Positions 4,819 through 40,135 of a stretch of DNA of 64,000 nt are shown piece by piece (within the stretch, counting starts at the first letter, position 1; each line of letters starts with the position of its first letter). The DNA lies in NCBI RefSeq assembly GCF_040938485.1, contig NW_027271421.1:566567-630566 (forward strand), written 5' to 3'. Source of the DNA: Diadema antillarum. Its lineage: Eukaryota. Under the pieces are notes generated by a model. It was given only the letters and a program-made list of their open reading frames with translations, was not told the origin of the DNA and did not search any database. Position numbers and translations under genes: made by a program.

Positions 4819-4991
4819 GTAAGGAGATGGTTGATTACATCGCTGACTACCTCACGACGATTCGATCAAGACGTACTTTACCTGACGTACAGCCAGGTTA
4901 CTTGAGAAACCTCATTCCAGAAAACGCTCCCATTGAAGGCGACAGATGGAGTGACATCATGTCAGACATCGAGCGGGTGATCATGCCTGGG
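4819..4991 (+). CDS. Hdc: Histidine decarboxylase exon (first coding exon seen). Encodes (G)[57 protein letters not shown]. The exon starts in phase 1 after an acceptor tttttcag.
   Basis: Strong match to the fly Hdc N-terminus ([43 protein letters not shown]...IVMPG) and human HDC ([35 protein letters not shown]). Acceptor cag ends at 4818 and donor gtaagt at 4992. The in-frame GKE immediately 5' of ATG 4827 implies a small upstream coding exon that was not found. Confidence 0.82.
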
Positions 4992-8702: not shown

Positions 8703-8816
8703 ATTACTCATTGGCAGAGTCCTCACATGCACGCTTACTTCCCTGCTCTGACGTCATATCCGTCCATGCTTGGAGATATGTTGGCTGACGCGATTGGCAA
8801 CTTGGGCTTTACCTGG
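8703..8816 (+). CDS. Hdc: Hdc exon encoding [38 protein letters not shown].
   Basis: Near-identical to [41 protein letters not shown]. Acceptor ...cccatccag and donor gtacgt. Phase 0 to phase 0. Confidence 0.9.
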
Positions 8817-11164: not shown

Positions 11165-11216
11165 GCATCGAGTCCGGCCTGCACGGAGCTGGAGAAGGTG
11201 GTCATGGACTGGCTGG
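11165..11216 (+). CDS. Hdc: Hdc exon encoding ASSPACTELEKVVMDWL plus one nt.
   Basis: Matches HDC ASSPACTELE..VMDWL(GK/AK). Acceptor ttattacag and donor g|gtaagt. The exon ends in phase 1. Confidence 0.8.
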
Positions 11217-12765: not shown

Positions 12766-12851
12766 GTGATTGTGTGTGTATGTGTATGTACGTGTTTGTG
12801 TGTTTGTTTGTCTGTAAGTGTGGTGTGTGTGGTGTGTGTGTGTGGGGGGGG
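12766..12851. repeat. (GT)n / (GTGTGTTT)-like microsatellite ending in a G10 run.
   Basis: Seen directly in the sequence. Confidence 0.9.
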
Positions 12852-13460: not shown

Positions 13461-14048
13461 CTTTTCGTGGAAATAAAACAACCGCACAAGTAAAATGTTT
13501 ACGCAGCGGTGAAAATTGATTATTTGTCCGTTAATGAATCCCACGACGCAGACGAGTATTGACAGAATTTCAAACATCACGGAGACATCGCTGTTTACTC
13601 ACATAAATGTTCTCCCACATAGAAATTGAACGGTCAACTTCATTTAATTTACATCTGTAGGTGGGTATACATTTCCCACCTTATCGGCAAACGTCTGTAT
13701 AAACTATATAAAATGGATTTCATTCTAATCGAATGTGCTTGACTTTCATGATATTTGGCACTTGACACCTTGCATAAAGGGAGTACCAATCTGTTAGTGT
13801 ATCAAATTTAATGCTCTTCATTTCATTTTTAAACTTTTATTTCCACTTTAAATGTATAACGTATGAACATTAATCGAGATGCCATACCATTTAACGCGTA
13901 TCAGTCCTGTCAAAAATAGTGACATAAAAACCGAAATTATGTACAGTATAAAAACAGCAACGTTTGCAATAAACAATATACGACATATCAAAGCTAGTAA
14001 AGTAACATTAGAGAGTCTCCCCATATCACTGTGTGTATAGTCTTTGAT

Positions 14049-14082
14049 ATATATATAAATAAATGAATATATATATATATAT

Positions 14083-14128
<46 letters not shown>
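14049..14128. repeat. (TA)n microsatellite.
   Basis: Seen directly in the sequence. Confidence 0.9.
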
Positions 14129-14130
<2 letters not shown>

Positions 14131-14520
14131 TTAATCATTGTGCAGGTAACAGGTGTTGAGTGATCATGCAGTAACCATGGTAACCATAAAATTTCACACA
14201 GTAAAGAATTAGCTGGGCACCTATAGAGACAAAGAACTAAAACAAGAAATTCTGAAAAGCAAATGATTAAAGAGTCACTGAAAGCCATTAGGGTATGTTT
14301 CTTGAGTGGAATTATCTTTCGTCTAATAGAACATAGAATATGGAGAATTGGATGAATGAATAGTTGCTCTTAAGCAACTATTGTCAAATACTTCTCTGAT
14401 CTTTTACGCCTTATGTTTTCTTATTTGAGACCGTTGTTAAATACTGATAAATTCAAATATATTTTTTAGATAAGTAATTCATGCGCGTCCGTTTTCTACA
14501 ACTGACTTCTAAAATCGTTG

Positions 14521-15056
14521 TACACTGCAAAAAGTCCGGTGTTAAATAGTGAACACCGAGCTGGTGTTAAATTTTCGGTGCTCATTTATGGTGTTAAATT
14601 AACACCCCCGGGTGTCATTTCCAAATTTTAAACTGTTTTTTGAAGAGTTTCTTAGTAACTGCACTTCTTGTGGATTTTTAATTTAAACAAGACGATCAAG
14701 AATTTTACATTAAAATACTAGATTTTTGAAAAAATGTGAAAATGAATTTACACCAAAGTAACACCAGCTGGTGTGGTCTCTTATTGAAGCTGGACGGGTG
14801 TTAAACCATTGATATTAACACCAACAAATATCAAATCAACACCATGTGGTGTCATTTTTGAATTAACACCAGTACAGTGTCAAAATAACACCAGGTACAA
14901 TGTCAAATTAACACCATGAAGTGTCAGGTGAACACTTTTCAACACCATCACAGTGCATTTTTAACACCTGTGGGTGTGGTCCTTTATTGAAGTTTGATCG
15001 GTGTTAGATTTAACACCCGTGGTGTTAAATCTAACACCGATGTTTTTACAGTGTAG
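14521..15056. mobile_element. MITE (~536 bp) with TIR tacactgcaaaaa / tttttacagtgta and an interior built from GGTGTTAA(A)T / AACACC short repeats.
   Basis: The termini are reverse complements with one mismatch. The interior has more than 20 copies of ggtgttaa / ttaacacc motifs in both orientations. It lies in Hdc intron 3. Confidence 0.65.
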
Positions 15057-16989
15057 AAGACAAAACACATAAAATCATGTTGGTATGTTGAATCATTCTC
15101 TTTTTGAAAAATAAATCCCAATCAATAGATGCACAGAACTGTAGTTTTGGTCTCCAGTATCATCATTACAGGAGAAATGCTGCGTTTAGGGAAATTTACC
15201 TACAGTCATTTCAATACTGCTTTGAGATGCAAAAAATATCTTGCGATTGGTTGTATCAAATTTCCTCCCGACTCTTTTAGACAACACGCTCATTTACGTG
15301 TAACTCAAATCTAAAGTGCCTCAGCTCTGTGCGGGATAATTCAGATAGTGAAGCGAAGTTGATGCAGTTTTGTAGTGAAACATGGCGAGAAGACGCCATG
15401 TCATTTTCCAGCTCTGCGACTTAACAAGGTTACGACAGGCCACCGCGTACCCCGTCTGTTGTATGGAGTTATATCTAAGGCCAAAAGCGGCACTGAGTTT
15501 AGTGCGCTCTCGTGTTCAATTGAACTCGACCACTATCCTGTCCTCAATCACCTGCATGCCTACCGAAACAAAAACAACGAGCGCTTGGTATTTATAGACG
15601 GAAATTGTTTCCTCGTCCATAAGTCGATATCAAATTAGGGAAGATAAGATGATGAAATAAAACCTTTCCCTGTGGTCCAGATCTTCTCTTGCATCATAAT
15701 ACAATAGTTTGGCTGCAAGAGTTGAAAATGATTTCCCCTCCATCGACGGGACGGTGAGCTCAAATGGTCTCTCAGCGCCGCATTCATAATGAGCGTGTTC
15801 AAACATGACCACGATGCTATTCTGAAAGGAGTAGAGTTGTGGGACCCAGTAATCGAATAATCTTTGACTGTATACAGACGGGTTATATTTCTTGCAGAAG
15901 AAGAGAAATTAAAACCGGCATTGAGAATTAGGACTGCTCCTTGCTCAGCGCCTCTATTTGTTCTGGGAAAATTTGACTGGGCTAATTATCTTTGTCACTT
16001 TTGAGACTAACTTTAGTCGCAAAAGTCAATAAAGTCAATAAATAGGGAAAGGAAAGGAAAAGAAGGAAAAGGGGAAGAAGAAGGAAGGGAGAGACAGAAA
16101 AAGAAAAGCTTTCCGAGTCCTACCGGTCCACTTTGATGGCAAATATCTTGCCTTTCCCTTCCTGTGCCTATGAGTCAACATATGCACAAGTTTTACACAC
16201 AAACCTATGGACATGAAATCACAGCGGGTTAAGGGATGTCACCGATGGCTAAGGCAGAGGTTTGTCTCTTAACCCATATCAGTTCAGCTCTTTGCAGCCC
16301 TTTGCATCCTTCTTGCGTCATTTACAGTCAGGGGATCTTTTCCTGTCAAAGAATCCTCTTCCAATATAAAGTCGACATGAGGGCAAAATGCCCCATTACT
16401 TTTAGAAACGTTAACAAGGCAACGCACGACTAAACCCGTCGTTAAAAGAATGTTCAGTACTAATCTTCCCGACTGCCGGCATTGCTAGCTCTGTGAGACG
16501 AGTCAGATGCATTTCAAAGATTTTAAGGATTTATCATCATTAAAGTCTTGAAGATGTTAAGAGGGACAAACTATAGTTCAATATAAACTGATGCAATGGT
16601 CCTCCATTGATACCCCTTTCCCAAATGTATCTTAACATCATGCATGAGTGGACACGCTACTAAAAATTGAGTTCACAAACCCTGAAAAAAAAAACACCAA
16701 AAATGCGCACTTTTATTTTTTTTTTTCACAAGGGCCCGTGAAAAGACGCCGATAATCGTCATTTTTACTGCATGGCGTGCATGAAAAGGTGACCTTTTGA
16801 CTGCGCATTGGAAATAATCCGCATTATTTGCATCCACATATTCCAGGTCCGCAATTATGCGGATCGATTGCAGCGTCGAAGTTGTGTGGGTTTTACTCTG
16901 ATCCCACCCCGATTTCACGACCAAATAAAGCGGATACTATCCGCATAACTGAGTTTGTGAAAGATCAGAGTTCTGTAGAAGAGTCCATC

Positions 16990-17960
16990 GATATTCCAGC
17001 CTGTAAGTATTTTCGGATATGGTTCGTTATTCCGAATGCTAGTTAATCCGAAAACGACATATGGTTCGTTATCCCGAAGATTCGTAGTTCCGAAGACTCA
17101 TTAATCCGAAAATGTAATAAGGTTCATATTCCGGTCTTTCGTTAACCCAAAAATAAAACAAGGTTTGTCATTCCGAAGGTTCGTTATTCCGAGGGTTCCC
17201 TCGTTTCCCTCTCTTCCTCCTTCCCTCTACCTCTCTCTCACTTTCTACCCTGAGCTTGACGGCAGGCACCAAATGAATTAATGGCTATACATGTTACTTT
17301 TTGTGTCTTACTGATCATATTCTTGTGATAGTTTTAATGCAACAACAGTTTATAGTGTAAATACCAAAGTAGGCTTTATATACAAATCATGTTCTACTCC
17401 GGAAACCAATGATATCTCTGTCACATTAATGGTTCACATTTTAGTATAGTTGTTTTTCCCTTCTTTTTTTATCACATAGGCATACCCCGCTTTTCTTATT
17501 TGGTACCATTATCTTCTATCCGTTCTCCGTTTCTTTTTCACAAACACTGATTACTCGGGGCTTACAGCCAAACAAGCTAGCTTTCATGTAGGTCCCGTCA
17601 TACTTCTCTTTGTTCAACCCCATTTCGATTTTGACCAGTTATCATTACAATTACTGTGTTATTACCATGTATATTGTTTGTTTTCTGCACATTGTTTACC
17701 AGGTAAAAGAACTTGTATTATTATTTCTGTTGCAAAGTTCATAAATGAGAAGTATGAAAATAAATGAATTGAATTGAATTGAATTGAATTGAATTGAATT
17801 GAAGGTGTATTAAAACGCATCTTCTTTCCATTTTCGGATTAACGAACCTTCGGAATACCGCCATATAATGTTCTGATTAACGAATCATTTTTCATTTTTG
17901 GCTTAACTAACATCTAGATTAGGAATTTATGTGTTTTGGAATAACAAACCTTCCGAATAA
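16990..17960. repeat. Inverted arrays of a ~35-bp unit (GGTTCGTTATTCCGAA...TTAATCCGAAAA). They run forward at 16990-17215 and reversed at 17820-17960, bracketing ~600 bp that contains (CT)n and (GAATT)n runs. A related array lies at 13040-13200.
   Basis: Five tandem units lie on the + strand before 17215. On the other side the sequence cggaataccg / gaataacaaacc / cgaataacc reads as the complement. The structure suggests a foldback-type element with subterminal repeats. Confidence 0.5.
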
Positions 17961-20900
17961 CCAATATATCACCCGCATTTTCAAACAAAAATGGGTCTGA
18001 GTCATAGCACATAGTATGTGTAAAAACTATCAAATCTATGGCGGTAGCACAAGGACACTCCCCGTTTGTTTGAAAACAATTTAAGCAGAATTTATCTTCT
18101 CTTTTCGGTCTTTATAATAATTACTTTTTTTGTTACCATGACAAAATGTGCATTGTTTCTTTTGGTTTTTATTATAATATCATATACTTTTAATTGCGTT
18201 TGATGAACTTTCTTTATCAAATGAATGAAAGTCAATTGACAACTTGTACCGCTTTGAATAATGTTTTTGTTTTCTTTGATGGAAATAAACTATTGAACTG
18301 AATTGAATTGAAGTTATTATCCTTGCGTGCGTGAACACTGACCATTGATTTATTCTATGCTTTAATTAATTTCAAAGTAGCGACACGTTGGTACCAAATA
18401 GTTTTTTCTTCTTTCATGTACATTTGCAATTTTGTCAAATGATGCCATATAGGTAGAATACACTGGTCGAAATCCATTTCTTTTAATACAATGTAGATTT
18501 TAGACATAAGTATGACATCAACCGCTTGTAAAGAAGCTTTTCAAATAGCTTAGAAAATGCAGATGAGATAGAAATATGCCTGTAGTTAGGTGGAATACGA
18601 GTGTCTCCCCTTTTTATGAATAGGAACAATTTCTGCAATCCTCAATTAATCACATAGATAATCACTTTGTTCAAATCAGAGATTAAAAATGCTACACAGA
18701 GGAGTGGTAAGACAATGGACAGATTTTTTAAAAAATCCTTCAGAATCAATGTCATCATAACAACGACGTTTTGCTTGCTTGAAACTCGATAGCAATCTTA
18801 AGGAGCTCGACTGGTTTTGGGGTCTTTGAAAAAAAAAGAATCCGAACAAGTTCTCTTTGGTAAAAAAAAAAAAGAAGCCAAACAAACAAAAGACACGCGC
18901 TTGATGGCTATAAACTTTAAGCAATAGGCCTATAAGCTTTTTTTTTTTTTTTTTGGGGGGGGGGGGATATACGGTGCCGTAACTGTCTGTATAATTTTCC
19001 AAATTATCCATTTTCTTTGAAACAGCATTCAATGTGTTACTCACTTCCTGTTATGCTGAAACTTCCATCACATGTGCCGTACAAGTGTTGCATTTTATGT
19101 AAAATGTAGAAATAAAGGTTAATTGTTAAGGTATACATGTATAATATTGCGTTCATGTTAAAGGGGGGGGGGAGGCGTCGGTGGGGCAGGAGACATTGCT
19201 AATCAAGAGGTGTATGTGTAACATCACACGAAAGACCTGCTGCGTATTACATTCCAGTGTGTCTGTAAGACAGAGCATAGTGCCAGATTAAGAATAACAT
19301 CACGCTAGTTCGGTGCGCTAAACCAGCTGATATCGGACCGTCATGGAAGCCAGGTATTGCGTAGGAAAAGAAAATCCTAATGCGAGAACGCCAACTCCAC
19401 TCAACGCTGCACTACACTACATAGAGAAGAGTCTGCCACCTGTGCGAATGAAATAAATCTGTCTTACCAGTTTCTGAAGTACGATGACTAATCATTTACA
19501 AGACATACCAAAATTCATCTTTATCATTGTTGTCATATTGTAGTTTGAATGAGCTCAACAAAATTACATCTTTTCAGTACACCATCACTTTTCCTTTTTT
19601 TTTACCGCTGGTTATTTTATTTCAACGCTAGGTTTGTAACTTGCCTTCATGCGTATTTCCGAGAAGCCTTTGCTATGACGTAAATATCAACTTTAGTTTG
19701 ATTGGACCGAGTCTGCAGGAGTGACTAAGGACAGCAGATAAGAGGGAGAGAGAGAAGAAGAGACACAGGCAGAGTCAGCGCCTCATCCCTGCAATATCAT
19801 GACGAATATTGTCATTCGCTTAATGCGTACACGGAGACGAGCACTCAACGACCCCCTAATCACATAGAGGCAGCAATTTCGGTCAATCATGATTCACGCT
19901 TCCCATATTTCCTCTCCGTTTACAGGCAGTTTTTGCCTATTTCAAACATGGAGTCAATCGTGGCTATTCCATGCTGGCTTAGAGCAAACATAATAGGATT
20001 ACAAAGCTCAGTGCAAAGCGAGGTGACGTCATAAATTAACTTCATATACGACGGGATAGGACAGGGATCATTTTACACTCAGTCATTCGGAGAAAAACAA
20101 ACAGAATAATCATTTTAGCTCATTTCACAGAAATCACAGTTGGCATCCAGATGTATTAGATATATATTCTGATTTTCACTTTTTTTTTCTGATATAGCAA
20201 TTATAATATTCTATATCGATTATTTGAGAATGATTTCGAAGAAATTTCATATTTTGTAATGCCCAAATATTTTGATTATAGAAGATAAAGAAGGTAATAA
20301 GAACTTGTTGGGTGATATAACTGTAAATCATGATTCAAGATAAAATTGACAAGAGTATATGTTTATGTAGTTATAGTGTAAATTAGCGTTATAACGCATT
20401 CCTGTTACAGCTGAATATGAGAAAACGATGAATGTGTGGTGTGGTGCAACATAAATTGTTGTTGGTTATCTTTTTTTGAGGGGGCCTGTACATTTTCAAT
20501 CTGATCCACATTTGAAACAAAATGATGATGCAGGAGGTATTTCTTTCAATTCTAGAATGGAGCATCATGGCACACACAACGACCTGAATAATATTTCATT
20601 AGATTTATCACTCATAAAATCCTAAGCACAAAGCAATAAAGGTTCCTTATAAATTATAAGTACTCTATAGCACAATAATCTTTCCCATACTTCAACACCA
20701 GCAAATATGAAATTCAGAAAAGCATTCAAAAACTCCAAGCTATAAGACTTTTCTACTCTTCCCTGGCAGTTTTTTGATTCCTAGTGAATCTCATTAAACG
20801 TGTAACATATTTCTTTTCATCACTTTTTGGTATCAAGTTTAAAAGCATGAAACATCAGTTTTGCCAGTTGTTTTACTTACACATTCACGTACACATACAT

Positions 20901-21487
20901 GCACATTCATGAAGGGATGCTACGGTTGAGATAGGGCTTCTGGTTTCCAACTTTTTTATGACAGTTTGCTGAGATAATGAGAAACCTCTTGTGAAACATG
21001 AAAGAGCATATCATTCTAAGAGGAACTCAAAGTTTATTTGATGAAGATTAGTTATGAAATGGCCGAGATATCCAAAACAAAGCGATCTAGATAAAAGGTG
21101 AGTCCCACCTTTTATCAGGATTGCTTGTTTTACATTGTTTTGGGATATTTCAGCCATTTCAAAACCGATTTTCATCAGATAAACTCTTAATTCCTCTTAG
21201 AATTGTATGCTCTTTAGGATTTCATAAAGTGGTTTCTAATTATCTCGCAAAAAGTTCAAAACTTAATCCTCACCTCAAGCAATACTATACCATCCCTTTT
21301 AGACTTGAATGAAATAGGATATGCACTCTGAAATAAATTCTAAACCTTTTTAGTTCAATGAATGAAATCCTAATTTTCTACTTTTGATAGCAGCATTTTT
21401 TTTTACTTCTACTGTATGTAATTTTAATGCTGCTTTAACCTCATGCAATAAAAGCATGGTTGATGCCAAACACAGGCAAACACTCGC

Positions 21488-21536
21488 ACATAAACACTTA
21501 CGCACACACGCGCACACGCGCACACGCGCACACGCA
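21488..21536. repeat. (CACACGCG)n minisatellite, about 6 units.
   Basis: cacacgcgcacacgcgcacacgcg... seen directly in the sequence. Confidence 0.85.
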
Positions 21537-21970
21537 TGTAAACTCGTTTATAACGAATCTTTCTTTTCAATGTCATCCATGATTTCAAAAACAAAGGGTC
21601 TGATGTAATAGTATTCTACCACGCTTCAAAACTACCTGTAATCAGTGTAATGACCATGTTTTCAGACACATTACATAAATGTCTAATTCTAATCAGGTGT
21701 TGTTCTACCAGTCATTTATTTTAAGCTTTCTTATTAGTCAGGTCATTTCCAAGAGACACGTTACGGAGAAATTTGATTACTTATAATTTGTGATGTTGCA
21801 GAGCCTACGTTTTATTGTAAGTTGATCGTCAAAGAGTCTTTGTTGTTTCTGTCATCTATATATTCATGTTTATGGTATCGCGAACCACTGTGAATGTATT
21901 GAGTGTTGCAATAAATTCAAAAGACCCTTGTATGATGCAATATTAGCACAAATTTGTTTGCTCTCTGCAG

Positions 21971-22041
21971 CGGACCTCATCGGATTGCCCAGCATCTTTA
22001 CACATCGTGATACATCTGGACCGGGAGGGGGTGTCATTCAG
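21971..22041 (+). CDS. Hdc: Hdc exon encoding (A)DLIGLPSIFTHRDTSGPGGGVIQ.
   Basis: Matches HDC MLGLPEHFL...QGGGVLQ. Acceptor ctctctgcag and donor cag|gtacag. It completes the phase-1 codon from the previous exon to give GCG (Ala). The intron is 10.7 kb. Confidence 0.78.
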
Positions 22042-23772: not shown

Positions 23773-23913
23773 GGCACAATGAGCGAGGCAACACTTGTGT
23801 CCATGTTTGCTGCCAGACGAGAAGCGATTACACGGCTCCAAACCCGCCAAGAATACCAAGACATGGAAGAGGCAGTGATATGCTCCAAGCTAGTTGCTTA
23901 CTGCACCGATCAG
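23773..23913 (+). CDS. Hdc: Hdc exon encoding GTMSEATLVSMFAARREAITRLQTRQEYQDMEEAVICSKLVAYCTDQ.
   Basis: Matches fly Hdc TTASEATLVCLLAGRTRAIQRFHERHPGYQDAEINARLVAYCSDQ. Acceptor ttttcccag and donor cag|gtagga. Confidence 0.88.
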
Positions 23914-24912: not shown

Positions 24913-25056
24913 GCTCACTCCTCTCTAGAGAAGAACGCAGTATTGGCGATGGTCAAACTCCGCCACGTTCCCTCGGACCAAAAACTCAGTCTGCGCGGTG
25001 AAGCGTTACGTGCTGCAATCTCACAGGATCGAGAGCATGGACTCATTCCCTTCTAT
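24913..25056 (+). CDS. Hdc: Hdc exon encoding AHSSLEKNAVLAMVKLRHVPSDQKLSLRGEALRAAISQDREHGLIPFY.
   Basis: Matches HDC [48 protein letters not shown]. Acceptor ccgcag and donor tat|gtgagt. Confidence 0.9.
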
Positions 25057-25834: not shown

Positions 25835-25901
25835 GTCTGCGCCACGCTGGGGACAACAGGTGCGTGTGCATTCGACAACCTGGAAGAACTTGGGGCAGTC
25901 T
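25835..25901 (+). CDS. Hdc: Hdc exon encoding [22 protein letters not shown] plus one nt.
   Basis: Matches HDC [23 protein letters not shown]. Acceptor ctcccctgtag and donor t|gtgagt. The exon is too short to appear in the ORF track, and its frame was fixed by homology. Confidence 0.82.
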
Positions 25902-29149: not shown

Positions 29150-29312
29150 GTGAAGAAGAAAATCTGTGGTTACACGTTGACGCGGCCTACGCCGGGACAG
29201 CGTTCGTCTGCCCGGAGTTCCGGGGCTATCTCCGCGGAGTCGAGAAGGTGCAGTCGTTTGCTTTCAACCCCAGCAAATGGCTAATGGTCCACTTTGACTG
29301 TACAGCGATGTG
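29150..29312 (+). CDS. Hdc: Hdc exon encoding (C)[53 protein letters not shown](W). It carries the PLP-binding lysine in the NPSKW motif.
   Basis: Matches [60 protein letters not shown] is the HDC-type motif, against DDC FNPHKW. Acceptor tctatgtag and donor tg|gtaaat. Confidence 0.9.
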
Positions 29313-29989: not shown

Positions 29990-30080
29990 GATTCGTGACG
30001 GAAAGACGCTGGAGAGGGCGTTCTGTGTGAGACCTCTCTACCTCAGACATGACAAGCAGGGTACTGCTATCGACCTCATG
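29990..30080 (+). CDS. Hdc: Hdc exon encoding (W)IRDGKTLERAFCVRPLYLRHDKQGTAIDLM.
   Basis: Matches HDC [30 protein letters not shown]. Acceptor gaccgtgtag and donor atg|gtgaga. Confidence 0.85.
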
Positions 30081-30513: not shown

Positions 30514-30612
30514 CATTGGCAGATACCTCTCAGCCGGAGGTTCCGTTCACTGAAGCTCTGGTTCGTGCTCCGTTCTTTTGGCGTCAAGAAGCTACAGGAA
30601 CACGTCCGCAGG
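30514..30612 (+). CDS. Hdc: Hdc exon encoding [33 protein letters not shown].
   Basis: Near-identical to human [36 protein letters not shown]. Acceptor ctttcctcag and donor agg|gtatgt. Confidence 0.92.
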
Positions 30613-30996: not shown

Positions 30997-31098
30997 GGTG
31001 TACGAAGGGCGCGCTACTTCGAAGAGCTGGTCTCTAACGATGCTGCGTTCGAGCTTCCTGCGGAGAGAATTCTGGGCTTGGTCGTCTTTCGATTGAAG
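30997..31098 (+). CDS. Hdc: Hdc exon encoding [34 protein letters not shown].
   Basis: Matches [37 protein letters not shown]. Acceptor gatgtgctag and donor aag|gtaaaa. Confidence 0.9.
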
Positions 31099-31508
31099 GT
31101 AAAATGTCTTCTTGTCGGCACATGTAGGACTACTAGCAATCCATCATTTATAAATCTAACGATTATTACGTGGAACAGCGGTAGTTCGGATTCGGGACAA
31201 TCACCTGGGCCCTGTTTCATAAAGCTGTTCGTAAAGTTACGAACGACTTAAGAACGACTGGTGATAGTTGTGATGTGCTATAATTATACTTATTAGAATT
31301 TCCATGTAATTCAGCACAAGAACTGATTAACAGTCGTTCTCAAGTCGTTCGTAACTTTACGAACAGCTTTATGAAACATCCCCAGGTTTGTCAACAGTGT
31401 GATGAAAGTCCTGCCGTAACTCGAGTGTAAATCAAACTTACAATATGTCACACATATCCTATTGAATGTTCATAACGAGTCATAGCGTCTTTACCTCTTG
31501 TCTCAAAG

Positions 31509-31958
31509 GGTCCCAACGCTTTCAGTGAGGAACTCCTTCGGCGCCTGAATCTAAGCGGCAAGATCTACGTGGTTCCTGCCTCCATCAAGGGTCTCTATGT
31601 CATCAGGTTTACAGTCACGTCTACCGAGACCACCGAGGATGATATCTTTAAAGACTGGCGCCTCATCCAAGGCACAGCGCGGGAAATCTTCGTCACCACG
31701 GACATCGTGGCCAACGTGCCTACCCGCATGGCTTCCTGGCCAGGTGCGCTAAATCTCACTGGCGGCCCCAAACAGCCTCGAGTCCAGAAACTGCGCTGGG
31801 AAAATAACAACGAACCAATCGAAAACGATGAAGAGAGGAAAGCGCCCTCGGCGGGTGAAAACGAGGAGGAGGAAGAGGAGGAGAATGAAGAAAGAGCAAG
31901 GAAGGATGTTGGACCAGTTCTCATAAAACCAGGCAAGCTGGAGGCCGTGGTTGCATGA
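31509..31958 (+). CDS. Hdc: Hdc terminal coding exon of 149 aa plus the TGA stop. It begins GPNAFSEELLRRLNLSGKIYVVPASIKGLYVIRFTVTSTETTEDDIFKDWRLIQGTAREI and ends in an acidic low-complexity tail ...ENEEEEEEENEERARKDVGPVLIKPGKLEAVVA.
   Basis: Matches HDC [57 protein letters not shown]. Acceptor tctcaaag. In-frame TGA at 31956-31958. The twelve exon lengths sum to 1659 nt, a multiple of three. Confidence 0.88.
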   Translation, partial: GPNAFSEELLRRLNLSGKIYVVPASIKGLYVIRFTVTSTETTEDDIFKDWRLIQGTAREIFVTTDIVANVPTRMASWPGALNLTGGPKQPRVQKLRWENNNEPIENDEERKAPSAGENEEEEEEENEERARKDVGPVLIKPGKLEAVVA

Positions 31959-33307
31959 AAAAGCATAGTTGCTTTAAAGCAGATGCACCCCATTCCCCGT
32001 ACGTTTTGTTTCATCATTCTACCCGTCAATTTTTACTACTGTCTTGTGCGTAGTACACCTCGTTCTTATTTTGTTTTGTTTTTGGCTACCGGTACAGTCC
32101 TTACAGGAGATTCCTCTGCGTATTTGTGTGCCTAACCTTGCTTAGTAGATTTTTCCCCCTACACATTGTCTGGCTAGAAAGATGTGAAGACGGCCTTGTC
32201 ATAATTACGATTTCCCGTTAGATGTGTGAATATCCGTTCAAGGCAAATGGTCAATTGAATTCTACTTAAGAAATAACAAAATACAATAGACTGCGCTACG
32301 ACGATATGTATTCTGCATAATACCAAATGGCAGTTTGCTGAACACTTATCCGTATCTTAAAAACTGAGATATAGCTATTTTCGTGTGGTACAATACCAGG
32401 TCTGCATTTTATGTTTTCCCCTTTTATGCAACACCCCTAGCACAATGTGTCATTTTAGATGTCAGTTCAGTCTTTCCACCTTTTCTTGCAGAGCAAGTTG
32501 CTTTCAGAACCGTGTGAGACTATTGATTTTATTCATTCATGCGTGTTGGTGCTTTTATTTTCATTTTTCGTGTCTTCTAACTTTCTGAGAGACTGCTCCA
32601 TCAGTCTTTCAGTATATGAATCATTTCTGGACGTGTGAATTTGATTTTTGGAAGACGAAAATGTTCTTCAAGAAAATGCAATAGTACCTATAAACAAGAA
32701 AATAATGCTGCAACAGGAAAATGTGATTCACTTTCAGGTCTTTCTTACTCGCTACTCTTGGCCATATCATATGCACCCAATTTAAAGGTACCTTAAAAGC
32801 AATGAAAAGTGATAAACTGTCTAGAAAGTTAACGCCCCTCATGATAATGGCAATGATAGTGATAATGATAATAGTTCTATAACAATGTATTGAAAAAATG
32901 GTAATAGTGATGATATCGTTTATAGTAATAACATTTTTTTTCAGTTTTCTCATTAAAATGTTGAGTGTTCATGAAATAGATTCGACCACCGATAATTCTC
33001 GTTCTCAGTGTTCATTTCATCCCAACAAAACATTATTTCATTGTTAAACTGACAGGTTTGGGAGATATGCAGCATCATACTTTGTAAAGTTGTTACATTT
33101 TCAGATTTGTATTAAGCACCACTTAATAAGCCAGTTCGTAGTTCCAGTTTGCGCATGAGCAGAAAAAGGTCATTTGTACCAAGAGGCACGTTGGTTTTTA
33201 AATTCACTGAGATAAGCATCTGTCATATAATGATTATTCATGTCACCCTTGTAAATGTTGCTTGTCAGTACATCCACCTAACAGCAAACCTGGTATTTGG
33301 CAATATG

Positions 33308-33313
33308 AATAAA
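33308..33313 (+). promoter_or_regulatory. AATAAA hexamer, a candidate Hdc polyadenylation signal about 1.35 kb after the stop.
   Basis: Sequence gaATAAAaac on the + strand. No closer canonical hexamer was seen after 31958. Usage is not verifiable from sequence. Confidence 0.2.
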
Positions 33314-34050
33314 AACAGTTTTTTAATGCATTCAAAGCAAAACAATGAAATAGATGCTTCCCCGATGGCTGATTGACGGACCATTCTGGTCACCTGGTCT
33401 ATGCAAGTTCATTTATTATTTGAACACGAATTCCATGAATTGTTACGTCTGGTAAGCTTCCCGGTACGAATAATGTCTCTTTGAAAACGAGTAAAGTGCC
33501 TAACCAATTGAGAAAAAAGAAAGGTCATTTGTACAAACGTGCCCATGAGCTAATTACGAACTGGCTTATTGTCTCTGTAAGCACTGCATTGGTGTACCAT
33601 GAAGTTTCGTGGTTGTCGTGTTTGTATCCATGTGATTCTATTTTTTTTTTTTTTTGCTATTACAGAATCCTGCAATATTGACTCATTTATTTTGCAACAC
33701 TGTTTCTTCATCCCATGTGTGCTTTATAGATGTATGAATCTAGATGCTAACCTCGTGATTCGTATGCATTTCGTTGCACTGATTCTTAAATGAAACCTTT
33801 ACAAAACTGAACTGAAACTTATTTGGGGTAGAATCTTTACCCTCTTCAATGAGACTTGTACTGTTGCGGAAAGCGAGGTTATTCAAGATGTAAAAGACCA
33901 CAATCGATTACAAACAAACACACGCGTGTACACACATACTCTCACAAACACGAGATAAAGAACACACACGGAATATCCCTGGAACTATAAGAAGAAATCA
34001 ATTGTCCATCATATTTATACTGTATTGATGTCCTCAATCTTGACGCACAG

Positions 34051-34724
34051 GGCGCGAAAGGAAGGGCTGCCTCACCAAGCTACTCAACTACCGGAAGAAG
34101 ATGGGTCGTCGCGCAATGTCCGAAGAAGCGGAGGGCTATGGCTACCCTTTCAACGCCTACTACAGCTTCGAAGATACCTCAAGTGGTTTGCCGTCCCCCT
34201 GTGAAGATGACCCGGGCTTCGAAGTCGACGATGAGGTGTTTGGGAGCAACAGTCACATCCAGAATGGCTGTACCAGCAGTGAGGAGGCTCAGGAGGAGGA
34301 GGAGGAGGAGGAGGAGGAGGAGGAGGCAGATGCAGATCACAATGAAGAAAACCATGACGAAGAGGCTAAACTACCCACTGGCCCTGAAACAGACGACACC
34401 GGCGACAATGCCACCAAGGACAACGAGAGAGAAGAAACCAATCCTGAGGTGCAAAACACCGACCAGGACATCGACCACAAGCTGCAGCCGAACGACATGG
34501 AGAATACCAACGCACTTCACACCAAGCTAGAATGCGTGACGGCTAACGGCCAAACCCAGCCTGTTTCCATGGGAACGGAGAAACCCGTCAACGTTGGGGT
34601 GGCCAGTAAAGGTCGTTTTGGTGCGTTGAGTCAAACGAAGGAGAGCACATACAACGGTGTGGTTAACATCTGCCACTATCGCTCCACCAAGGGCTCCGTG
34701 GTGAGCCAAGGGGACGGGGAATAG
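34051..34724 (+). CDS. Acidic low-complexity ORF. The ATG-initiated 207 aa span 34101-34724, and the frame stays open back to an acceptor-like cag at 34048-34050. It is either an alternative 3' coding exon of Hdc or an unrelated orphan ORF. Sequence: MGRRAMSEEAEGYGYPFNAYYSFEDTSS...poly-E...GRFGALSQTKESTYNGVVNICHYRSTKGSVVSQGDGE.
   Basis: A 624-nt ORF is unusual in otherwise ORF-poor AT-rich DNA. An upstream polypyrimidine plus cag sits at 34031-34050. The exon would start in phase 1, which fits the in-frame donor cca g|gtgcgc at 31743/31744 inside the last Hdc exon. No homolog is recognised. Confidence 0.3.
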
Positions 34725-36603
34725 TTCTGAATGCAGAAAACATTGCTATCAAAAATCTTAATTTGAAAGGAAAATATTTATAGATAGACATAGAAACTAA
34801 CAAATATTCAATGTGTTACTGTAATCTCTTAGTATATCTACGAGCAAGATTACGAATTTACTTATTGCATGTCAACCCGAATAGTTTGATCATGTTACTA
34901 TTATCAACTTTGTGTCTAGCGGTCCCTCGTGCGCTCCCATAAACATTGATTTTCCTGGCTGTATTACATATCTCTGATGGCCACTGTTGCGTGAAACGTC
35001 TGTTCTTATTTATGAAACGTCGAACAGTCAAATATAACTTGGTTTTGATTAATGAGAATTTAGCACCTAGGGATTAAATTTGATTTCTAAATTTTGAGAT
35101 CAAACTTACTTTTTTCTTTATTCAGCAGGGCCAAACTTATTAATCTATTTACCAATAATCAATTGTTGGTAAGTTTGTCAGTACGTTTATCTGAATGGCG
35201 TCTGTATAGTTTAAATAACTCTGTCACACAGTAACACTTGAACGAGAATAAACTTGGATAGCTTAGACAAATTTGCGATAAAGATATCCTTTAGCTTTAT
35301 AAATAATACGAGATGTTTAGTTGGATGGAAGCACTATAGTCATCCTGTATGTTGAATGTTTTCCTCGGTGAAATGGTGAATGATATCATAATTATTTATT
35401 ACTTACTTTATCGGAGTTATAGCTTAATAGTCACTTCAGCTATCAAACCAGAGTATGTTTACCTTACCAAAGTAAGATTTGAAGCTAACTTATTTCCATT
35501 CTACTTTGTTAAAAAGAAACAAAATAGACGTAATTCAGACCGAGTCGAAGAAATTGAGGAAGATACAATCTAGCTACTCCATACTACCCGACTTTGGCAT
35601 TTTCAGAAGATACATAAAGGCTTAACAACAAAGGTTAAAATAGGCTTCAGATATTTTGGGTTCCACATGAAAATGTGAAATACAGTGCTAACGTTGACAA
35701 ATGCTGATTCAGATATTTGAATGAAACAGAGATACGTCAGTCAAATCAAACATTGGTTGTGGAGGCGAACAAAATTCAAAGTATTTCTCTTCGACTGTCA
35801 CTGGGTTCTGCCGATTCATGTTCTCTTTACGACCGTCGAAGAGCGACTGAGAAAATTCTGTACGTTTTATCTCATCATCAGCGTTAGGTACAACAAAGTA
35901 CATGATAAAGATTGATTGCAAAGAGAACAAAGACTAGTGTAGGACTGACATTGATTTTTTGTTTCCTTACACAAGGTTTGACAAGAGAATTACACGTGGA
36001 ATGGATATTGGGAACTTCGAATCAACTTCACTGTGTGACATGATACCAGAAAAATATATGAAGAGTAATAATTGAGTTCAACATCTCTTTCAAAAAGAGC
36101 GAATACACTGAAGGCCTCATGTTCAATACTTAGAATCATACTTCAATATCATGATTTGTAGTTGTGCTCTGACACTTCAAATTTGTTCAATCTTGTTAAT
36201 AGAAAAAAAATCAGACAAATACAAGTTATCAATTCTGTCGATTATAAGAGACGAAATTCTGGTACACGTGTATTAATAATCTCCTAAGCCAATGGTTACT
36301 CGTAAGCTAAGTAAAGATGTGTGTGTACGAAAGGCATTCAACCACATGGACGTAACCAGAAAAGGGCTAAAATAAAGTTCACTTTAGTACATCAGATATA
36401 TTGGCGCAGTGACGAGTAATTTTTATGGCTAGTTAAATGTACCAATACCTGGAACACTTTACCAAAACTCCGTCTATGTGATACACAAGAAACTTTGAAA
36501 AAAGAACTTCAGGACAAATTGTTCAAATCATGATTGATATGTTATCGTTTATGTTGTAACGACGCTCTGATCAGTTGGCTGTAAGAGCACTTGGTAAGAA
36601 ACA

Positions 36604-36629
36604 GCTTTTTATTGTTATTATCATTATTA

Positions 36630-36702
<73 letters not shown>

Positions 36703-36790
36703 CACTACTACTACTACTACTGCTACTACTATTATTATCATTATTATTATCATCATCATCATCATCATCATCATCAATGGTCGTACTACA
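36604..36790. repeat. (ATT)n of ~100 bp, followed by (CTA)n, (ATT)n and (ATC)n. A compound trinucleotide microsatellite.
   Basis: Seen directly in the sequence. It is the source of the poly-I, poly-L and poly-M ORFs. Confidence 0.95.
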
Positions 36791-38812
36791 ACCAGATAAA
36801 GGGAAGTTGTGGTTGGCCCTAGGGTCAATTCATTATTTACATATATAATATAATATATTCTTTTTTCTTTCTCTTTTTTTTTTAAAAGCAGCGGCATGGT
36901 TGGTCAGGTCAACTAGAGTGAATGACCGAGCCTCTCTCCGTCTACATTTTACCTTCTCAAGGCTGATGACCGAGCCTCTCTCCGTCTACATGTTACCTTC
37001 TCAAGGCTGGTACAATGTCTTCGACTGATATCCCACTCTTCATTCTCTCTCCTCCTCTCACTCTCCTCCTCTGTAACCTTCTTCCCTTTCTCCTCCTTCC
37101 TCTCCCTTACTAGTCATCCTGTCTCTCCTATCCTCAATACATGCACCTTCAAATCTAAACCAAAGACCTATTATTTATCCAGCAACTTTATGAATGATGT
37201 GTGACACATTGTGGGAGCTGGGCGCCTTTGAATGTTTCTGCAGATAAATGCCGCTATATAAATGCCGCTATATAAATGCCGCTATATAAATGTCGTTTCA
37301 TCATCATTATCATCTCACATTCTTCATCTTCTTCCTTTTTGTCACTTCCCTCCTATAACCTTCCTCCTACCACAAGGCAGAAACACAGATACCTACACAA
37401 TGAAAACATTCCGTCAAGCTTGTTTTCCATACACAATTTCTTAGCAGAGAAGGGATGGCACTTTAAAACTCAAATACAGCTTCATGCTGATTACAATAAA
37501 GAACATTTTATTGTCATTCAAAACGTACAACATTGAATTTCCTGTGATAACATAGCATGAATATGAATGATGGCATCTCGAGAAAGAGAAACAATTTTGA
37601 TTTCATCTTTCAATACTTGATGAAATGTGTTTGACAGTACATTAAATCCGTATCGGTTGTGGAAACAAAAGAGACTATACGTATATTGTTCTTATCTTGC
37701 ACACATATTGAAAACTTTTCCAGACCATTTTCCTCAGTATCTGATGTAAAATCTCAAAGACCCAATCAGATTGTTGAAGTAAAAAGGACCTAGGTCTGTG
37801 TATCAGGAATTTGTGGGAATTAGACAAGACTAAAAAAAGAAGATCTCTTGTATTTATATTGCTGTAAAAACAATGAAAAAAAAATAGAAGAACCAAAGCT
37901 ATATGTACCTCAACAATTACATCTGATGTTTTCCATATTTAACTGCAGCATACTTTTACTATCTCGACTTGCTTCCTGTACGTAATTTCTTCTTCTCAGT
38001 TTAGTCATCCCCAGAATGTGAACAAGAAAAGAATGTCATGATGACTGAAGACTCAAAATTAAAGAAAAAAATCCACTGAATTTCAGCAGCACCATGCATG
38101 CACATCATGAACATGGATGGTAGGTACACTTTTTGAGAAGAGACAAAAATAGCAGCTTTATCCTACATTGCCACAGTGACACATTCATTATGACCCTTGA
38201 GTACTGCTACAAGTTTGTTTGTACTGATAATACTTGGCGGCACTGTGTATACTACAGTTACTTGTACTCCAAACATAGCTGCTGATACATGCAATAAGAA
38301 GGAAATATCAATATTACAAAGACTTCAATTGTGCATCTAAAACATGGATTCTATCTTACATAGTTTTGAAAACGAGTAGCTCAATGACCTAAATTCAATG
38401 GGCACTATAACAATCTAGTGAGGAAGATTGATTGGTACTTCCCAAGAGTTGGTTGATATGGCAACACTTACCACCGATATGTATTCAAAATACATTTACC
38501 ATAATGAAGATCAGATGTTGCTAGACTTTGGTTTTCAGCATTGCTGTTTTTCCAAGAGGAAAGAATCGGATCAAGCACAGCATGGCAGCACGCCTGAATA
38601 AAAATGTCTTGTTCATGCACAAAGTGTCTCTCCACTGACCCCTGAGTGTGCTTTCTTTGTGTTTAGGATGATCCCTGGGTAAATAACCATATCATGATAC
38701 TTCATCCTTGTACCAAGACTACTGCACTTGTGAAGGCAACTCTGTGAGGTATCACCCATTATGTATGAAGAATGAAATAAGTAGAGAAGAGACAGAGAAA
38801 ACCCAAAGAACT

Positions 38813-39656: not shown

Positions 39657-40135
39657 TTTAAATTCATGAAATTCTTCCGTCGAGATGTTTTCATTGCAAC
39701 TGATTGACAAATTGCCCTACATCGACGTAAATAAGCACTGAATTGATCAGTGTTATCAGTGTTTTTTTTATCATGGCTACTACTAAAACACTGATCAATT
39801 CAGTGCTTATTTACGTCGATGTAGGGCAATTTGTCAATCAGTTGCAATGAAAACATCTCGACGGAAGAATTTCATGAATTTAAATAACAAAGCAGTACCC
39901 GCTGCATGCTATAAGGATTAGAACCAACACTTGCTGTCGGGCGAAAGCTCGGTGGTCTAGTGGAGATGACGCCTGTCCGGTGATCAGGAGGTCGGTCGTA
40001 GGTTCGAATCCTGCTCGAGTATGTACGCCCATGTTTTTTTTTTTTTTTTTTTTTATCATGGCTACTACTAAAACACTGATCAATTCAGTGCTTATTTACG
40101 TCGATGTAGGGCAATTTGTCAATCAGTTGCAATAG
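39657..40135. mobile_element. Composite foldback element. A near-perfect ~100-bp inverted repeat (arms about 39657-39762 and 39790-39889) is followed by the tRNA-like segment and T-run. A third direct copy of the right-arm proximal part follows at 40037-40133.
   Basis: The sequence attcatgaaattcttccgtcgagatgttttcattgcaactgattgacaaattgccctacatcgacgtaaataagcactgaattgatcagtgtt and its reverse complement are separated by a short loop. The segment tttttatcatggctactactaaaacactgatcaattcagtgcttatttacgtcgatgtagggcaatttgtcaatcagttgcaat occurs twice in direct orientation, flanking the tRNA-like insert. Confidence 0.7.
39946..40022 (+). pseudogene. tRNA-like sequence (Glu/Asp-like), followed 11 nt later by a T21 run at 40034-40054. 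Likely a pseudo-tRNA or tRNA-derived SINE head rather than a functional tRNA.
   Basis: A canonical T-arm GTAGG-TTCGAAT-CCTGC. A D-arm GGTGGTCTAGTGG as in tRNA-Glu. An anticodon region CGCCTGTCC resembling tRNA-Asp (GTC), but the 3' half of the anticodon stem does not pair. The acceptor stem AGCTCGG/TCGAGTA pairs at 6 of 7 positions with two G-U pairs. The downstream oligo-T is a Pol III terminator-like run. Confidence 0.45.

What the first reader, a model, noticed from the sequence alone, without database searches (positions are those of the whole stretch)
31744..34724. Possible alternative C-terminal exon of Hdc: a phase-matched donor inside the last exon and an acidic 3' ORF
A 624-nt ATG-initiated ORF (34101-34724) sits 2.1 kb past the Hdc stop on the same strand. 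Its frame stays open upstream to an acceptor-like polypyrimidine plus CAG at 34048-34050. An exon starting at 34051 would be in phase 1. The last Hdc exon contains a donor-like site cca g|gtgcgc at 31743/31744 that is also phase 1. Splicing the two would replace the short acidic tail with a 220-aa acidic, poly-E-containing extension. Long low-complexity C-terminal tails are a known feature of HDC family members (the fly Hdc tail is long). The alternative is an unrelated orphan or lineage-specific ORF.
Basis: inference. Interest (0 to 1): 0.55.

Follow-up and report, generated by a model that had tools for sequence, protein, structure and literature searches.

The report
Tail-coding last exon of sea-urchin Hdc

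Summary
The ORF at 34101-34724 is the longest in the window. It is coding: GC3 is 0.67, codon use is Hdc-like, and dN/dS is about 0.1 against five echinoid orthologues whose synonymous sites are saturated. Conservation starts at the acceptor (34051), upstream of the ATG, so this is an exon and not an orphan gene.

In a sea cucumber and three unidentified lineages, the same tail is contiguous with the end of the decarboxylase domain in one exon. RefSeq models for S. purpuratus, L. variegatus and L. pictus already contain the tail. All of them join it at ...KPG|RERK....

In the window that junction is a GC donor, CCAG|GCAAGC, at 31932/31933. It is phase 1 and conserved in all five echinoid sequences examined.

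If the GC donor is not used, translation ends at the conserved ...KPGKLEAVVA*, which is the short isoform. A related species' mRNA contig carries the tail exon downstream of that stop.

This is ordinary gene structure that is already annotated elsewhere. The isoform switch is inferred and has not been shown for this species.

The parts
4819..4991 (+). Hdc coding exon ([12 protein letters not shown]...), the first one found in the window. An upstream exon encoding about MDVEEYRRR was not found.
   Evidence: tblastn with the L003 protein; splice refinement; continuous translation
8703..8816 (+). Hdc coding exon
11165..11216 (+). Hdc coding exon, followed by a 10.75-kb intron
21971..22041 (+). 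Hdc coding exon
23773..23913 (+). Hdc coding exon
24913..25056 (+). Hdc coding exon
25835..25901 (+). Hdc coding exon
29150..29312 (+). Hdc coding exon
29990..30080 (+). Hdc coding exon
30514..30612 (+). Hdc coding exon
30997..31098 (+). Hdc coding exon
31509..31932 (+). Penultimate coding exon, the part common to both isoforms. It covers the end of the decarboxylase fold, the ASWPG motif (31731-31745) and the acidic linker up to ...LIKPG.
   Evidence: The linker stays in frame in four species despite length differences.
31741..31749 (+). It is probably not the conserved splice site.
   Evidence: Approximate donor weight-matrix (PWM) flank score 3.7, within the range of the gene's real donors. 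The GT is present only in the window and L. variegatus; L001, L003 and S. purpuratus have G|GC. No RefSeq model uses it.
31930..31938 (+). Proposed 5' splice site of the long isoform, a GC donor CAG|GCAAGC (exon ends at 31932), phase 1
   Evidence: Identical CAG|GCAAGCTG in the window, L001, L003, L009/L010 (S. purpuratus-type) and L014 (L. variegatus). Corresponds to the junction KPG|RERK in XP_789367.3, XP_041458283.1, XP_054749749.1 and XP_063952115.1. Best flank score, 7.2.
31933..31958 (+). Short-isoform-specific end, KLEAVVA plus TGA. It is read when the GC donor is not used.
   Evidence: K[PA]GKLxAVxA* is conserved in five echinoid sequences. It is the C-terminus of S. purpuratus XP_030828545.1.
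31996..32004 (+). Candidate second donor, CCC|GTACGT, 40 nt after the stop (exon would end at 31998). It would place the tail exon in the 3'UTR of the short-isoform mRNA.
   Evidence: Inferred by analogy with the mRNA contig L003, where the tail exon follows the stop after 34 nt. The flank score is weak, -1.5.
31933..34050 (+). Intron of the long isoform (2118 nt, GC-AG). It holds AATAAA/ATTAAA matches at 32952 and 33308.
   Evidence: Homologous introns are about 1.2 kb (L001, L009) and 878 nt (L014).
34020..34050 (+). 3' splice site: pyrimidine-rich stretch plus CAG (34048-34050), phase 1
   Evidence: An acceptor at the homologous position and in the same phase is present in L001, L004, L006, L009-L013 and L014.
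34051..34724 (+). Terminal coding exon (coding part): 224 codons of conserved HDC tail plus TAG. Motifs: RERKGCLTKLLNYRKK, RRAMSEE, GYGYPFNAYYSFEDTSSGLPSPCED, DDEVF, ANGQ, VASKGRFGALSQTKESTYNGVVNICHY.
   Evidence: (dN/dS about 0.1)
34291..34326 (+). (GAG)12 run encoding the poly-Glu stretch of the tail; a lineage-specific expansion
   Evidence: absent from the orthologous tails (alignment)
35073..35252 (+). Candidate polyadenylation signals (35073, 35247) downstream of the tail stop
   Evidence: Pattern match only; not tested

Best explanation
The window carries an echinoid histidine decarboxylase gene (coding exons 4819-31932). The ORF at 34051-34724 is the gene's last coding exon. It encodes a disordered, acidic C-terminal tail of about 224 aa that echinoderm HDCs have carried since before sea urchins and sea cucumbers diverged. 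In a sea cucumber and three other lineages of unidentified origin, the tail is contiguous with the end of the catalytic domain in one long last exon. In sea urchins an intron interrupts it.

The long protein is made by splicing from a GC 5' splice site (CCAG|GCAAGC, exon end 31932, phase 1) to the acceptor at 34050/34051. This gives ...GPVLIKPG-RERKGCLTKLLNYRKKMGRRAMSEE...GDGE*, at least 771 aa in total.

When that weak GC donor is not used, translation runs 8 more codons to the conserved ...KPGKLEAVVA-TGA. This produces a short enzyme without the tail. The tail exon is then either absent from the mRNA or sits in the 3'UTR, joined through a donor shortly after the stop.

Shown here: coding constraint on the tail, its homology to HDC tails, the conserved acceptor and GC donor, use of that junction in RefSeq models of three species, and the presence of the tail exon on an Hdc mRNA in a relative.

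Inferred: that this species uses the same junction, that both isoforms are made, and that the tail is regulatory. The regulatory idea rests on a conserved RRxSE[ED] basophilic-kinase-type site and on analogy with the roughly 20-kDa C-terminal region of mammalian HDC.
For: Gene identity. The window's model has Pfam Pyridoxal_deC at 519 bits. Its best solved relative is human HDC 4e1o at 689 bits, against 566 for DDC. It is 85-87% identical to S. purpuratus and L. pictus HDC and 68% identical to the sea cucumber protein.

The tail is coding. pN is about 0.25 against pS of 0.73-0.84 versus five urchin tails, and dN/dS is 0.08-0.15 where it can be estimated. Codon log-odds is +0.51, against -0.47 +/- 0.16 for introns, and GC3 is 0.67.

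It is an exon, not a stand-alone ORF. Conservation begins at G-RERK, 17 codons upstream of the ATG. L001 lacks that ATG (KTRLGRR). A phase-1 pyrimidine-tract-plus-AG acceptor sits at the same place in L001, L004, L006, L009-13 and L014.

The tail belongs to HDC. P0005-P0009, genomic L002, L005, L007 and L008, and A. japonicus XP_071826073.1 all carry ...LYVIRFTVTS...ASWP... and ...SKGRFGALS..YNGVVNICH in one uninterrupted exon.

The junction. XP_789367.3 (S. purpuratus), XP_041458283.1 (L. variegatus), and XP_054749749.1 and XP_063952115.1 (L. pictus) all read [FY]KPG|RERKTCL. In the L. variegatus genome this is AAACCAG|GCAAGCTGG ... AACAG|GA, a GC-AG intron of 878 nt. The same 11-mer occurs in the window, L001, L003 and L009/10. 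It has the best flank score of all phase-1 candidates.

The short isoform. S. purpuratus XP_030828545.1 ends in KPGKLEAVLA, and this ending is conserved in five sequences.

Transcript evidence. The mRNA contig L003 is fully spliced across all the window's intron positions. It contains the complete HDC ORF, the stop, 34 nt, and then the tail exon.

Literature. Sutherby et al. report cloning the S. purpuratus HDC cDNA following XP_789367 (PMC3460732).
Against: There are no RNA data for the window's own species, and neither its tail nor its junction is in the protein collection. The RefSeq long models are computed predictions, and I could not inspect their transcript support. The only transcript contig found (L003) shows the short-isoform arrangement, not the KPG|RERK junction. 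The conservation of CAGGCAAGCTG is confounded with protein-level conservation of KPGKL in the short isoform. The window's acceptor has only a modest pyrimidine tract.
Confidence: 0.8

Rival explanations
1. The first reader's junction is the real one, or an additional real one, in this species. Splicing 31743^34051 would skip the acidic linker and give ...MASWP-G-RERKGCL....
For: The phases match and the frame stays open. CAG|GTGCGC scores 3.7 with an approximate donor weight matrix (PWM), inside the range of the gene's 11 other donors, 0.8-5.5. A GT is also present at this codon in L. variegatus. The resulting ASWP-to-RRAxSE spacing (19 aa) is not outside the range seen in lineages with a contiguous tail (33 aa in sea cucumber).
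Against: The GT is only the third-position state of a Gly codon (GGT versus GGC). L001, L003 and S. purpuratus have G|GCGC[GC]C with poor flanks. The RefSeq L. variegatus model does not use the GT although it is there. No protein in the collection has an ASWPG-RERK junction, although the query was built that way.
Confidence: 0.1
2. The tail is reached by translational read-through of the TGA at 31956-31958, after splicing from a donor just past the stop (31998^34051). In the window and in the L003 mRNA that splice leaves the tail in frame with the Hdc ORF.
For: In the L003 transcript the HDC ORF and the tail are in the same frame, separated by a single TGA and 11 sense codons. The window's candidate donor at 31998/9 and L001's at +10 are also phase 1.
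Against: S. purpuratus-type contigs and L. variegatus have two consecutive in-frame stops (TGA TAG) yet keep an intact, constrained tail. I chose the donors in the window and L001 by eye, and the window's scores poorly (-1.5). There is no conserved read-through context after the stop.
Confidence: 0.03
3. The ORF is an independent gene, either an orphan or a downstream ORF translated from its own ATG at 34101.
For: It starts with ATG and is the longest ORF in the window. Prokaryote-style gene callers report it as a separate protein in metagenome contigs (P0001-P0004).
Against: Amino-acid conservation extends 17 codons upstream of the ATG, exactly to a conserved splice acceptor. L001 lacks the ATG. 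The same sequence is fused to the HDC domain in one exon in four other lineages. It lies on the Hdc mRNA in L003.
Confidence: 0.03
4. The tail exon is now only 3'UTR, an untranslated relic of the ancestral long last exon, and only the short enzyme is made.
For: The single transcript contig found (L003) has the stop upstream of the tail. The newest S. purpuratus RefSeq protein in the cluster is the 562-aa short form.
Against: dN/dS is about 0.1 with saturated synonymous sites. There are no frameshifts or stops in six tails, and all indels are in-frame. That pattern is not expected of untranslated sequence over this divergence.
Confidence: 0.04

Closest known systems
RefSeq long HDC models of sea urchins: S. 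purpuratus XP_789367.3 (759 aa), L. variegatus XP_041458283.1, L. pictus XP_063952115.1 / XP_054749749.1
   Same: Same gene (85-87% identity in the catalytic part). Same tail motifs in the same order. Same acceptor position and phase, and the same CAG|GCAAGCTG site at the KPG codon.
   Different: The middle of the tail is only about 30-40% alike. The window has its own (GAG)12 poly-Glu expansion. The intron is 2.1 kb instead of 0.9-1.2 kb. For the window the junction is inferred and has not been annotated.
Sea cucumber HDC (Apostichopus japonicus XP_071826073.1, 675 aa) and the unnamed genomic contigs L002/L008 and L007
   Same: ASWP, RRAxSE[ED], (G)YGFPFNAYYS, D[DE]VF and SKGRFGA.S....YNGVVNICH occur in the same order after the decarboxylase fold.
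   Different: Domain end and tail lie in one uninterrupted last exon, with no stop, no intron and no KLxAVxA* ending. The intron and the short-isoform ending were seen only in the echinoid sequences.
C-terminal region of mammalian HDC (74-kDa precursor processed to the 53-55-kDa enzyme)
   Same: A long, non-catalytic, PEST-like or acidic C-terminal extension follows the same fold boundary. Both tailed and tail-less enzyme forms exist (PMC6359378). The mammalian last-exon tails retrieved start at the equivalent position.
   Different: There is no detectable sequence similarity between the tails: mammals, insects, tick and crab lack the echinoderm motifs. In mammals the short form arises by proteolysis. 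Here it would arise at the RNA level (inferred).
GC-AG introns used as weak, alternatively used 5' splice sites (general knowledge: about 1% of metazoan introns, with strong consensus at the other donor positions)
   Same: GC at +1/+2 with an otherwise near-perfect CAG|G.AAG context. A competing outcome (non-use) gives a different C-terminus.
   Different: Actual alternative use has not been shown for this gene in any species I could examine.

Membership tests
Animal PLP-dependent histidine decarboxylase (group II decarboxylase, HDC clade) | Pyridoxal_deC domain covering the full profile | tested here: met
   PF00282 at 519 bits, profile positions 1-375 of 375, on the window's spliced model
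Animal PLP-dependent histidine decarboxylase (group II decarboxylase, HDC clade) | Closer to HDC than to DDC/AADC | tested here: met
   Human HDC 4e1o scores 689.5 bits against 566 for the best DDC. Relatives are named histidine decarboxylase by NCBI and JGI.
Animal PLP-dependent histidine decarboxylase (group II decarboxylase, HDC clade) | Histidine decarboxylase activity | not testable with these tools
   Needs an enzyme assay
Echinoderm HDC C-terminal tail (as in XP_789367.3 / XP_071826073.1) | Motifs RRAxSE[ED], YG[YF]PFNA[YF]YS, [DE]D[DE]VF and SKGRFGA.S....YNGVVNICH, in this order, C-terminal to ASWP | tested here: met
   Alignments. Invariant columns include G187 R188 F189 G190 A191 and Y200 N201 G202 V203 V204 N205.
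Echinoderm HDC C-terminal tail (as in XP_789367.3 / XP_071826073.1) | Physically part of the HDC polypeptide | tested here: inconclusive
   Contiguous in one exon in four non-echinoid-type lineages. Joined in RefSeq models of three urchins. On the same mRNA in L003. For the window itself this is only inferred.
GC-AG intron with alternative use of the donor | GC at intron positions +1/+2 with consensus flanks, AG at the 3' end, compatible phases | tested here: met
   31930-31938 CAG|GCAAGC; 34048-34050 CAG; both phase 1; the open frame is restored
GC-AG intron with alternative use of the donor | Junction observed in transcripts, and both outcomes observed | not testable with these tools
   No RNA data for this species. 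Support is indirect: RefSeq models and one short-form mRNA contig.
Programmed stop-codon read-through extension | A single leaky stop followed by an open, conserved in-frame extension in all species | tested here: not met
   TGA TAG double stop in S. purpuratus-type contigs and L. variegatus
Independent (orphan) protein-coding gene | Conserved start codon, with conservation confined to the ATG-to-stop ORF | tested here: not met
   The ATG is absent in L001, and conservation extends upstream to the acceptor

The most novel reading that the evidence does not exclude
Sea urchins may switch between a tailed and a tail-less histidine decarboxylase at the RNA level. The switch would be regulated use of a conserved weak GC 5' splice site created when an intron arose inside the ancestral long last exon. 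This would be a splicing counterpart of the proteolytic 74-to-53-kDa maturation of mammalian HDC. The echinoderm-specific tail, with its conserved RRxSE site and its SKGRFGALS...YNGVVNICH end, would act as a regulatory or targeting module for histamine synthesis, for example during larval competence.
Probability: 0.4. Interest if true: 0.35.

Novelty: already known. Interest (0 to 1): 0.2.

Why it matters
The main value is for annotation. In this genome Hdc should be modelled with a terminal coding exon at 34051-34724, joined through a GC-AG intron (31933-34050). Gene finders that allow only GT-AG introns will truncate the protein at 31958 and may call the tail as a separate orphan gene. Prokaryote-style callers did exactly that on metagenome contigs.

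Biologically, it marks an echinoderm-specific, strongly constrained but disordered HDC tail of unknown role. It also marks a plausible long/short isoform switch, in a system where histamine controls metamorphic competence in sea urchin larvae. None of this is surprising to a specialist, because the long and short proteins are already in RefSeq for related species.

Tried and rejected
1. Stop-codon read-through. I considered this seriously because the tail is in frame with the TGA in the L003 mRNA and with my candidate post-stop donors in the window and L001. I rejected it as the conserved mechanism because S. purpuratus-type and L. variegatus sequences have TGA TAG.

2. Skipping exon 31509-31958 altogether. 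The upstream intron is phase 0 and the tail acceptor is phase 1, so the frame would break.

3. A 66-nt GC-AG mini-intron in L003 (donor at KPG, AG at 2237-38). This is possible. However, the exon start GA AGA GAG aligns exactly with the conserved exon start of the other species, so a normal splice from a donor 34 nt after the stop is the simpler reading. It remains unresolved without that species' genome.

4. Searching papers for the run and assembly accessions (SRR6173504, SRR16156407, SRR23999948, ERZ26222911) found nothing.

5. The third word-indexed protein search, with a five-species junction-plus-tail profile, gave no new sequences and no transcript with the KPG|RERK junction. The indexed search also missed the Lytechinus proteins, which only the exhaustive representative search found.

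6. AlphaFold2 of the tail gave pLDDT 49 and no secondary structure apart from one 4-residue helix, so there was no fold to search. Pfam gave only sub-threshold low-complexity matches.

7. A regex search for the first coding exon (M..EEYR.R) in window 1-4830 found nothing.

8. Rfam at gathering thresholds found no RNA in 31-35 kb.
Full report
**Observation.**
- The ORF 34101-34724 (+, 207 aa, ATG start) lies 2143 nt after the Hdc stop (TGA 31956-31958).
- Its frame is open upstream only to 34044, and CAG sits at 34048-34050.
- An exon starting at 34051 is phase 1. So is cca g|gtgcgc at 31743/31744, and joining them keeps one open frame.
- The ORF is the longest in the window on either strand.
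- It sits in a GC peak of 0.485 against about 0.36.
- Its GC3 is 0.67, against 0.62 for the Hdc exons and 0.37 GC for the introns.
- Scored with the codon usage of the upstream Hdc exons, it gets +0.51 bits/codon in that frame only. For 500 intron chunks the best frame averaged -0.47 +/- 0.16, with a maximum of -0.06.

**What the gene is.**
- tblastn with a related full-length protein maps 12 coding exons between 4819 and 31958.
- The spliced model has a complete Pyridoxal_deC domain at 519 bits.
- It matches human histidine decarboxylase (4e1o, 689 bits) better than any DOPA decarboxylase (566 bits).
- It is 85-87% identical to the HDCs of Strongylocentrotus purpuratus and Lytechinus pictus and 68% identical to that of the sea cucumber Apostichopus japonicus. 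The window therefore comes from a sea urchin, and the gene is Hdc.
- The folded part ends about 15 residues before the motif ASWPG (31731-31745).

**The 3' ORF is a constrained coding exon, not an orphan.** A search with the conceptually spliced C-terminus found two kinds of relatives.
- Four proteins (P0001-P0004) are tail-only ORFs from genomic contigs of other urchins. Their similarity to the window begins at G-RERK, 17 codons upstream of the ATG and exactly at the acceptor.
- A pyrimidine tract plus AG in phase 1 precedes the tail at the homologous position in L001, L004, L006, L009-L013 and L014.
- Between the window and five other urchin tails, synonymous sites are saturated (pS 0.73-0.84) while pN is about 0.25.
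- Where dS can be estimated, dN/dS is 0.08-0.15. All indels are in frame and no tail carries a stop.

**The tail belongs to HDC.** Five other proteins (P0005-P0009) carry both the end of the decarboxylase domain (...LYVIRFTVTS...ASWP...) and the tail motifs.
- Their contigs (L002, L005, L007, L008) are genomic: intron-like sequence precedes the exon. In each, domain end and tail form one uninterrupted exon.
- The L005 type is A. japonicus HDC (XP_071826073.1, 675 aa).
- The tail motifs are RRAxSE[ED], YG[YF]PFNA[YF]YS, D[DE]VF and SKGRFGA.S....YNGVVNICH.
- The ancestral echinoderm state is therefore a long last exon. That is also the arrangement in insects, ticks, crabs and mammals, whose tails are otherwise unrelated in sequence.
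- An exhaustive profile search of 1.84 billion representatives found the tail in only about eight clusters. The motif set is thus restricted to a small group of clusters; the members that carry names are echinoderms.
- AlphaFold2 predicts no structure for the tail (pLDDT 49), and Pfam has no family for it.

**Where the splice is.** The cluster of P0004 contains two S. purpuratus proteins.
- XP_030828545.1 (562 aa) ends ...IFKPGKLEAVLA.
- XP_789367.3 (759 aa) reads ...IFKPG|RERKTCLKKLMNYRKKMGRR... and continues through the tail.
- RefSeq models of L. variegatus (XP_041458283.1) and L. pictus (XP_054749749.1, XP_063952115.1) have the same ...IYKPG|RERK... junction.
- In the L. variegatus genome (L014) that junction is AAACCAG|GCAAGCTGG ... 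TTAACAG|GA, a GC-AG intron of 878 nt. If it is left unspliced the frame ends KPGKLGAVLA-TGA-TAG.
- The 11-mer CAG|GCAAGCTG occurs at the same codon, in phase 1, in the window (exon end 31932), L001, L003 and the S. purpuratus-type contigs L009/L010.
It is the Gly codon of ASWPG, which reads G|GT in the window and L. variegatus but G|GC with poor flanks in L001, L003 and S. purpuratus. No model uses it.
- I scored the flanks with an approximate donor weight matrix recalled from general knowledge. The gene's 11 other donors score 0.8-5.5.
- The most likely long product is therefore ...GPVLIKPG-RERKGCL.... It keeps the acidic linker 31744-31932 and replaces only the last eight residues of the short form.

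**The short form and the one transcript.**
- The ending K[PA]GKLxAVxA-stop is conserved in all five urchin sequences and is an annotated RefSeq C-terminus.
- L003 is a 3.4-kb Logan contig from run SRR6173504. It is continuous across all the window's intron positions, so it is an mRNA.
- L003 carries the complete HDC ORF ending ...KPGKLVAVLA-TGA, then 34 nt, then the tail exon starting at the conserved exon boundary.
- This shows that the tail exon lies on Hdc transcripts on the same strand. In that molecule, however, it lies downstream of the stop, most simply through a second donor shortly after the stop.
- The window has a candidate for such a donor (CCC|GTACGT, exon end 31998).
- The stop would lie 34-40 nt upstream of the last junction. 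From the general 50-55-nt rule, that mRNA should escape nonsense-mediated decay (inference).
- In L003 the tail is in frame with the stop, so I tested read-through. It fails as a general mechanism because two species have tandem stops.

**Mechanism, with status of each step.**
- Shown: the tail is under purifying selection; it is homologous to the C-terminus of echinoderm HDC; its acceptor and a GC donor are conserved and phase-compatible; and gene models in three relatives use them.
- Inferred: this species splices 31932^34051, and use or non-use of the weak GC donor yields long and short enzymes.
- Also inferred: the tail is regulatory. It contains an RRxS motif followed by acidic residues that is conserved from urchins to sea cucumbers, and it is acidic and disordered.
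- In mammals the roughly 20-kDa C-terminal region of the 74-kDa HDC directs translocation to the endoplasmic reticulum; a PEST domain makes the 74-kDa form unstable. The C-terminal region is removed to give the 53-55-kDa enzyme (PMC6359378).

**Comparison and novelty.** The feature is the orthologue of an exon already present in RefSeq proteins of S. purpuratus and two Lytechinus species. Sutherby et al. state that they cloned the S. purpuratus cDNA after XP_789367 (PMC3460732). I therefore rate it as already known. Two things are not, to my knowledge, written up. One is that the long form depends on a conserved GC-AG intron that seems to have arisen inside the ancestral last exon. The other is that non-use of the donor gives a conserved alternative C-terminus. 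That is a modest, testable point and not a surprise.

**Limits.**
- There are no transcript data for this species.
- I could not inspect the evidence behind the RefSeq models.
- No transcript with the KPG|RERK junction was found in the searchable collections.
- The first coding exon (about MDVEEYRRR) was not located in the window.
- The donor weight matrix is approximate.

Noticed in passing
window 31213-31378: Perfectly placed inverted repeat: 53-nt arms, 94% complementary, 60-nt loop. It lies inside the 410-nt intron upstream of exon 31509 and looks like a small foldback or MITE-type insertion.
   Followed up: partly
window 33125-33190 and 33520-33572: Two intron segments share a direct repeat (AAAGGTCATTTGTAC) and an inverted repeat (GCCAGTTCGTA / TACGAACTGGC), seen by eye. 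This is probably a fragmentary repeat element. The repeat tool did not report it at min_length 20.
   Followed up: no
window 39946-40022 (+): Rfam tRNA match (35.6 bits, gathering score 29), about 5 kb downstream of the Hdc tail exon. It could be a tRNA gene or a tRNA-derived SINE head.
   Followed up: no
window 36609-36776, 36922-37009, 37244-37292: (TTA)47 and (ATC)13 microsatellites. These are the source of the poly-Ile/poly-Leu 'ORFs' at 36571-36897. There is also a 44-nt x2 and a 14-nt x3.5 tandem repeat.
   Followed up: no
window 1-4818: The first coding exon of Hdc (about 9 codons, MDVEEYRRR in relatives, ending in phase 1) was not found upstream of the acceptor at 4816-4818. It may be divergent or lie beyond the window's 5' end.
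   Followed up: partly
window 11217-21970: A very long intron (10.75 kb) sits in an otherwise compact Hdc gene. Its contents were not examined.
   Followed up: no
L003 2196-2232 (Logan SRR6173504_30314): In this related species' mRNA, the tail exon follows the HDC stop after 34 nt and is in frame with it. This implies a second 5' splice site just past the stop, so the tail would be 3'UTR in the short-isoform mRNA. Less likely, the genome of that species is contiguous here with a 66-nt GC-AG mini-intron.
   Followed up: partly
L009 / L010 (Logan SRR28370576 / SRR28370571), proteins P0058 and P0060: The collection's gene caller translated the HDC stop TGA as Trp (...KLEAVLAW), apparently using a TGA=Trp code on these urchin contigs. 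This is an annotation artefact and not a polymorphism.
   Followed up: yes
L014 16223-16644 (L. variegatus CM031017.1): In L. variegatus the next gene, about 2.6 kb downstream of the Hdc tail exon, is a very large protein (2258 aa) on the opposite strand with multiple C-type lectin and PAN domains. I did not check whether the window has the same neighbour.
   Followed up: no
L002 10414-12987: A reverse-transcriptase (RVT_1) retroelement ORF of 857 aa lies 3.5 kb downstream of the contiguous HDC last exon in the unidentified echinoderm-like contig.
   Followed up: no
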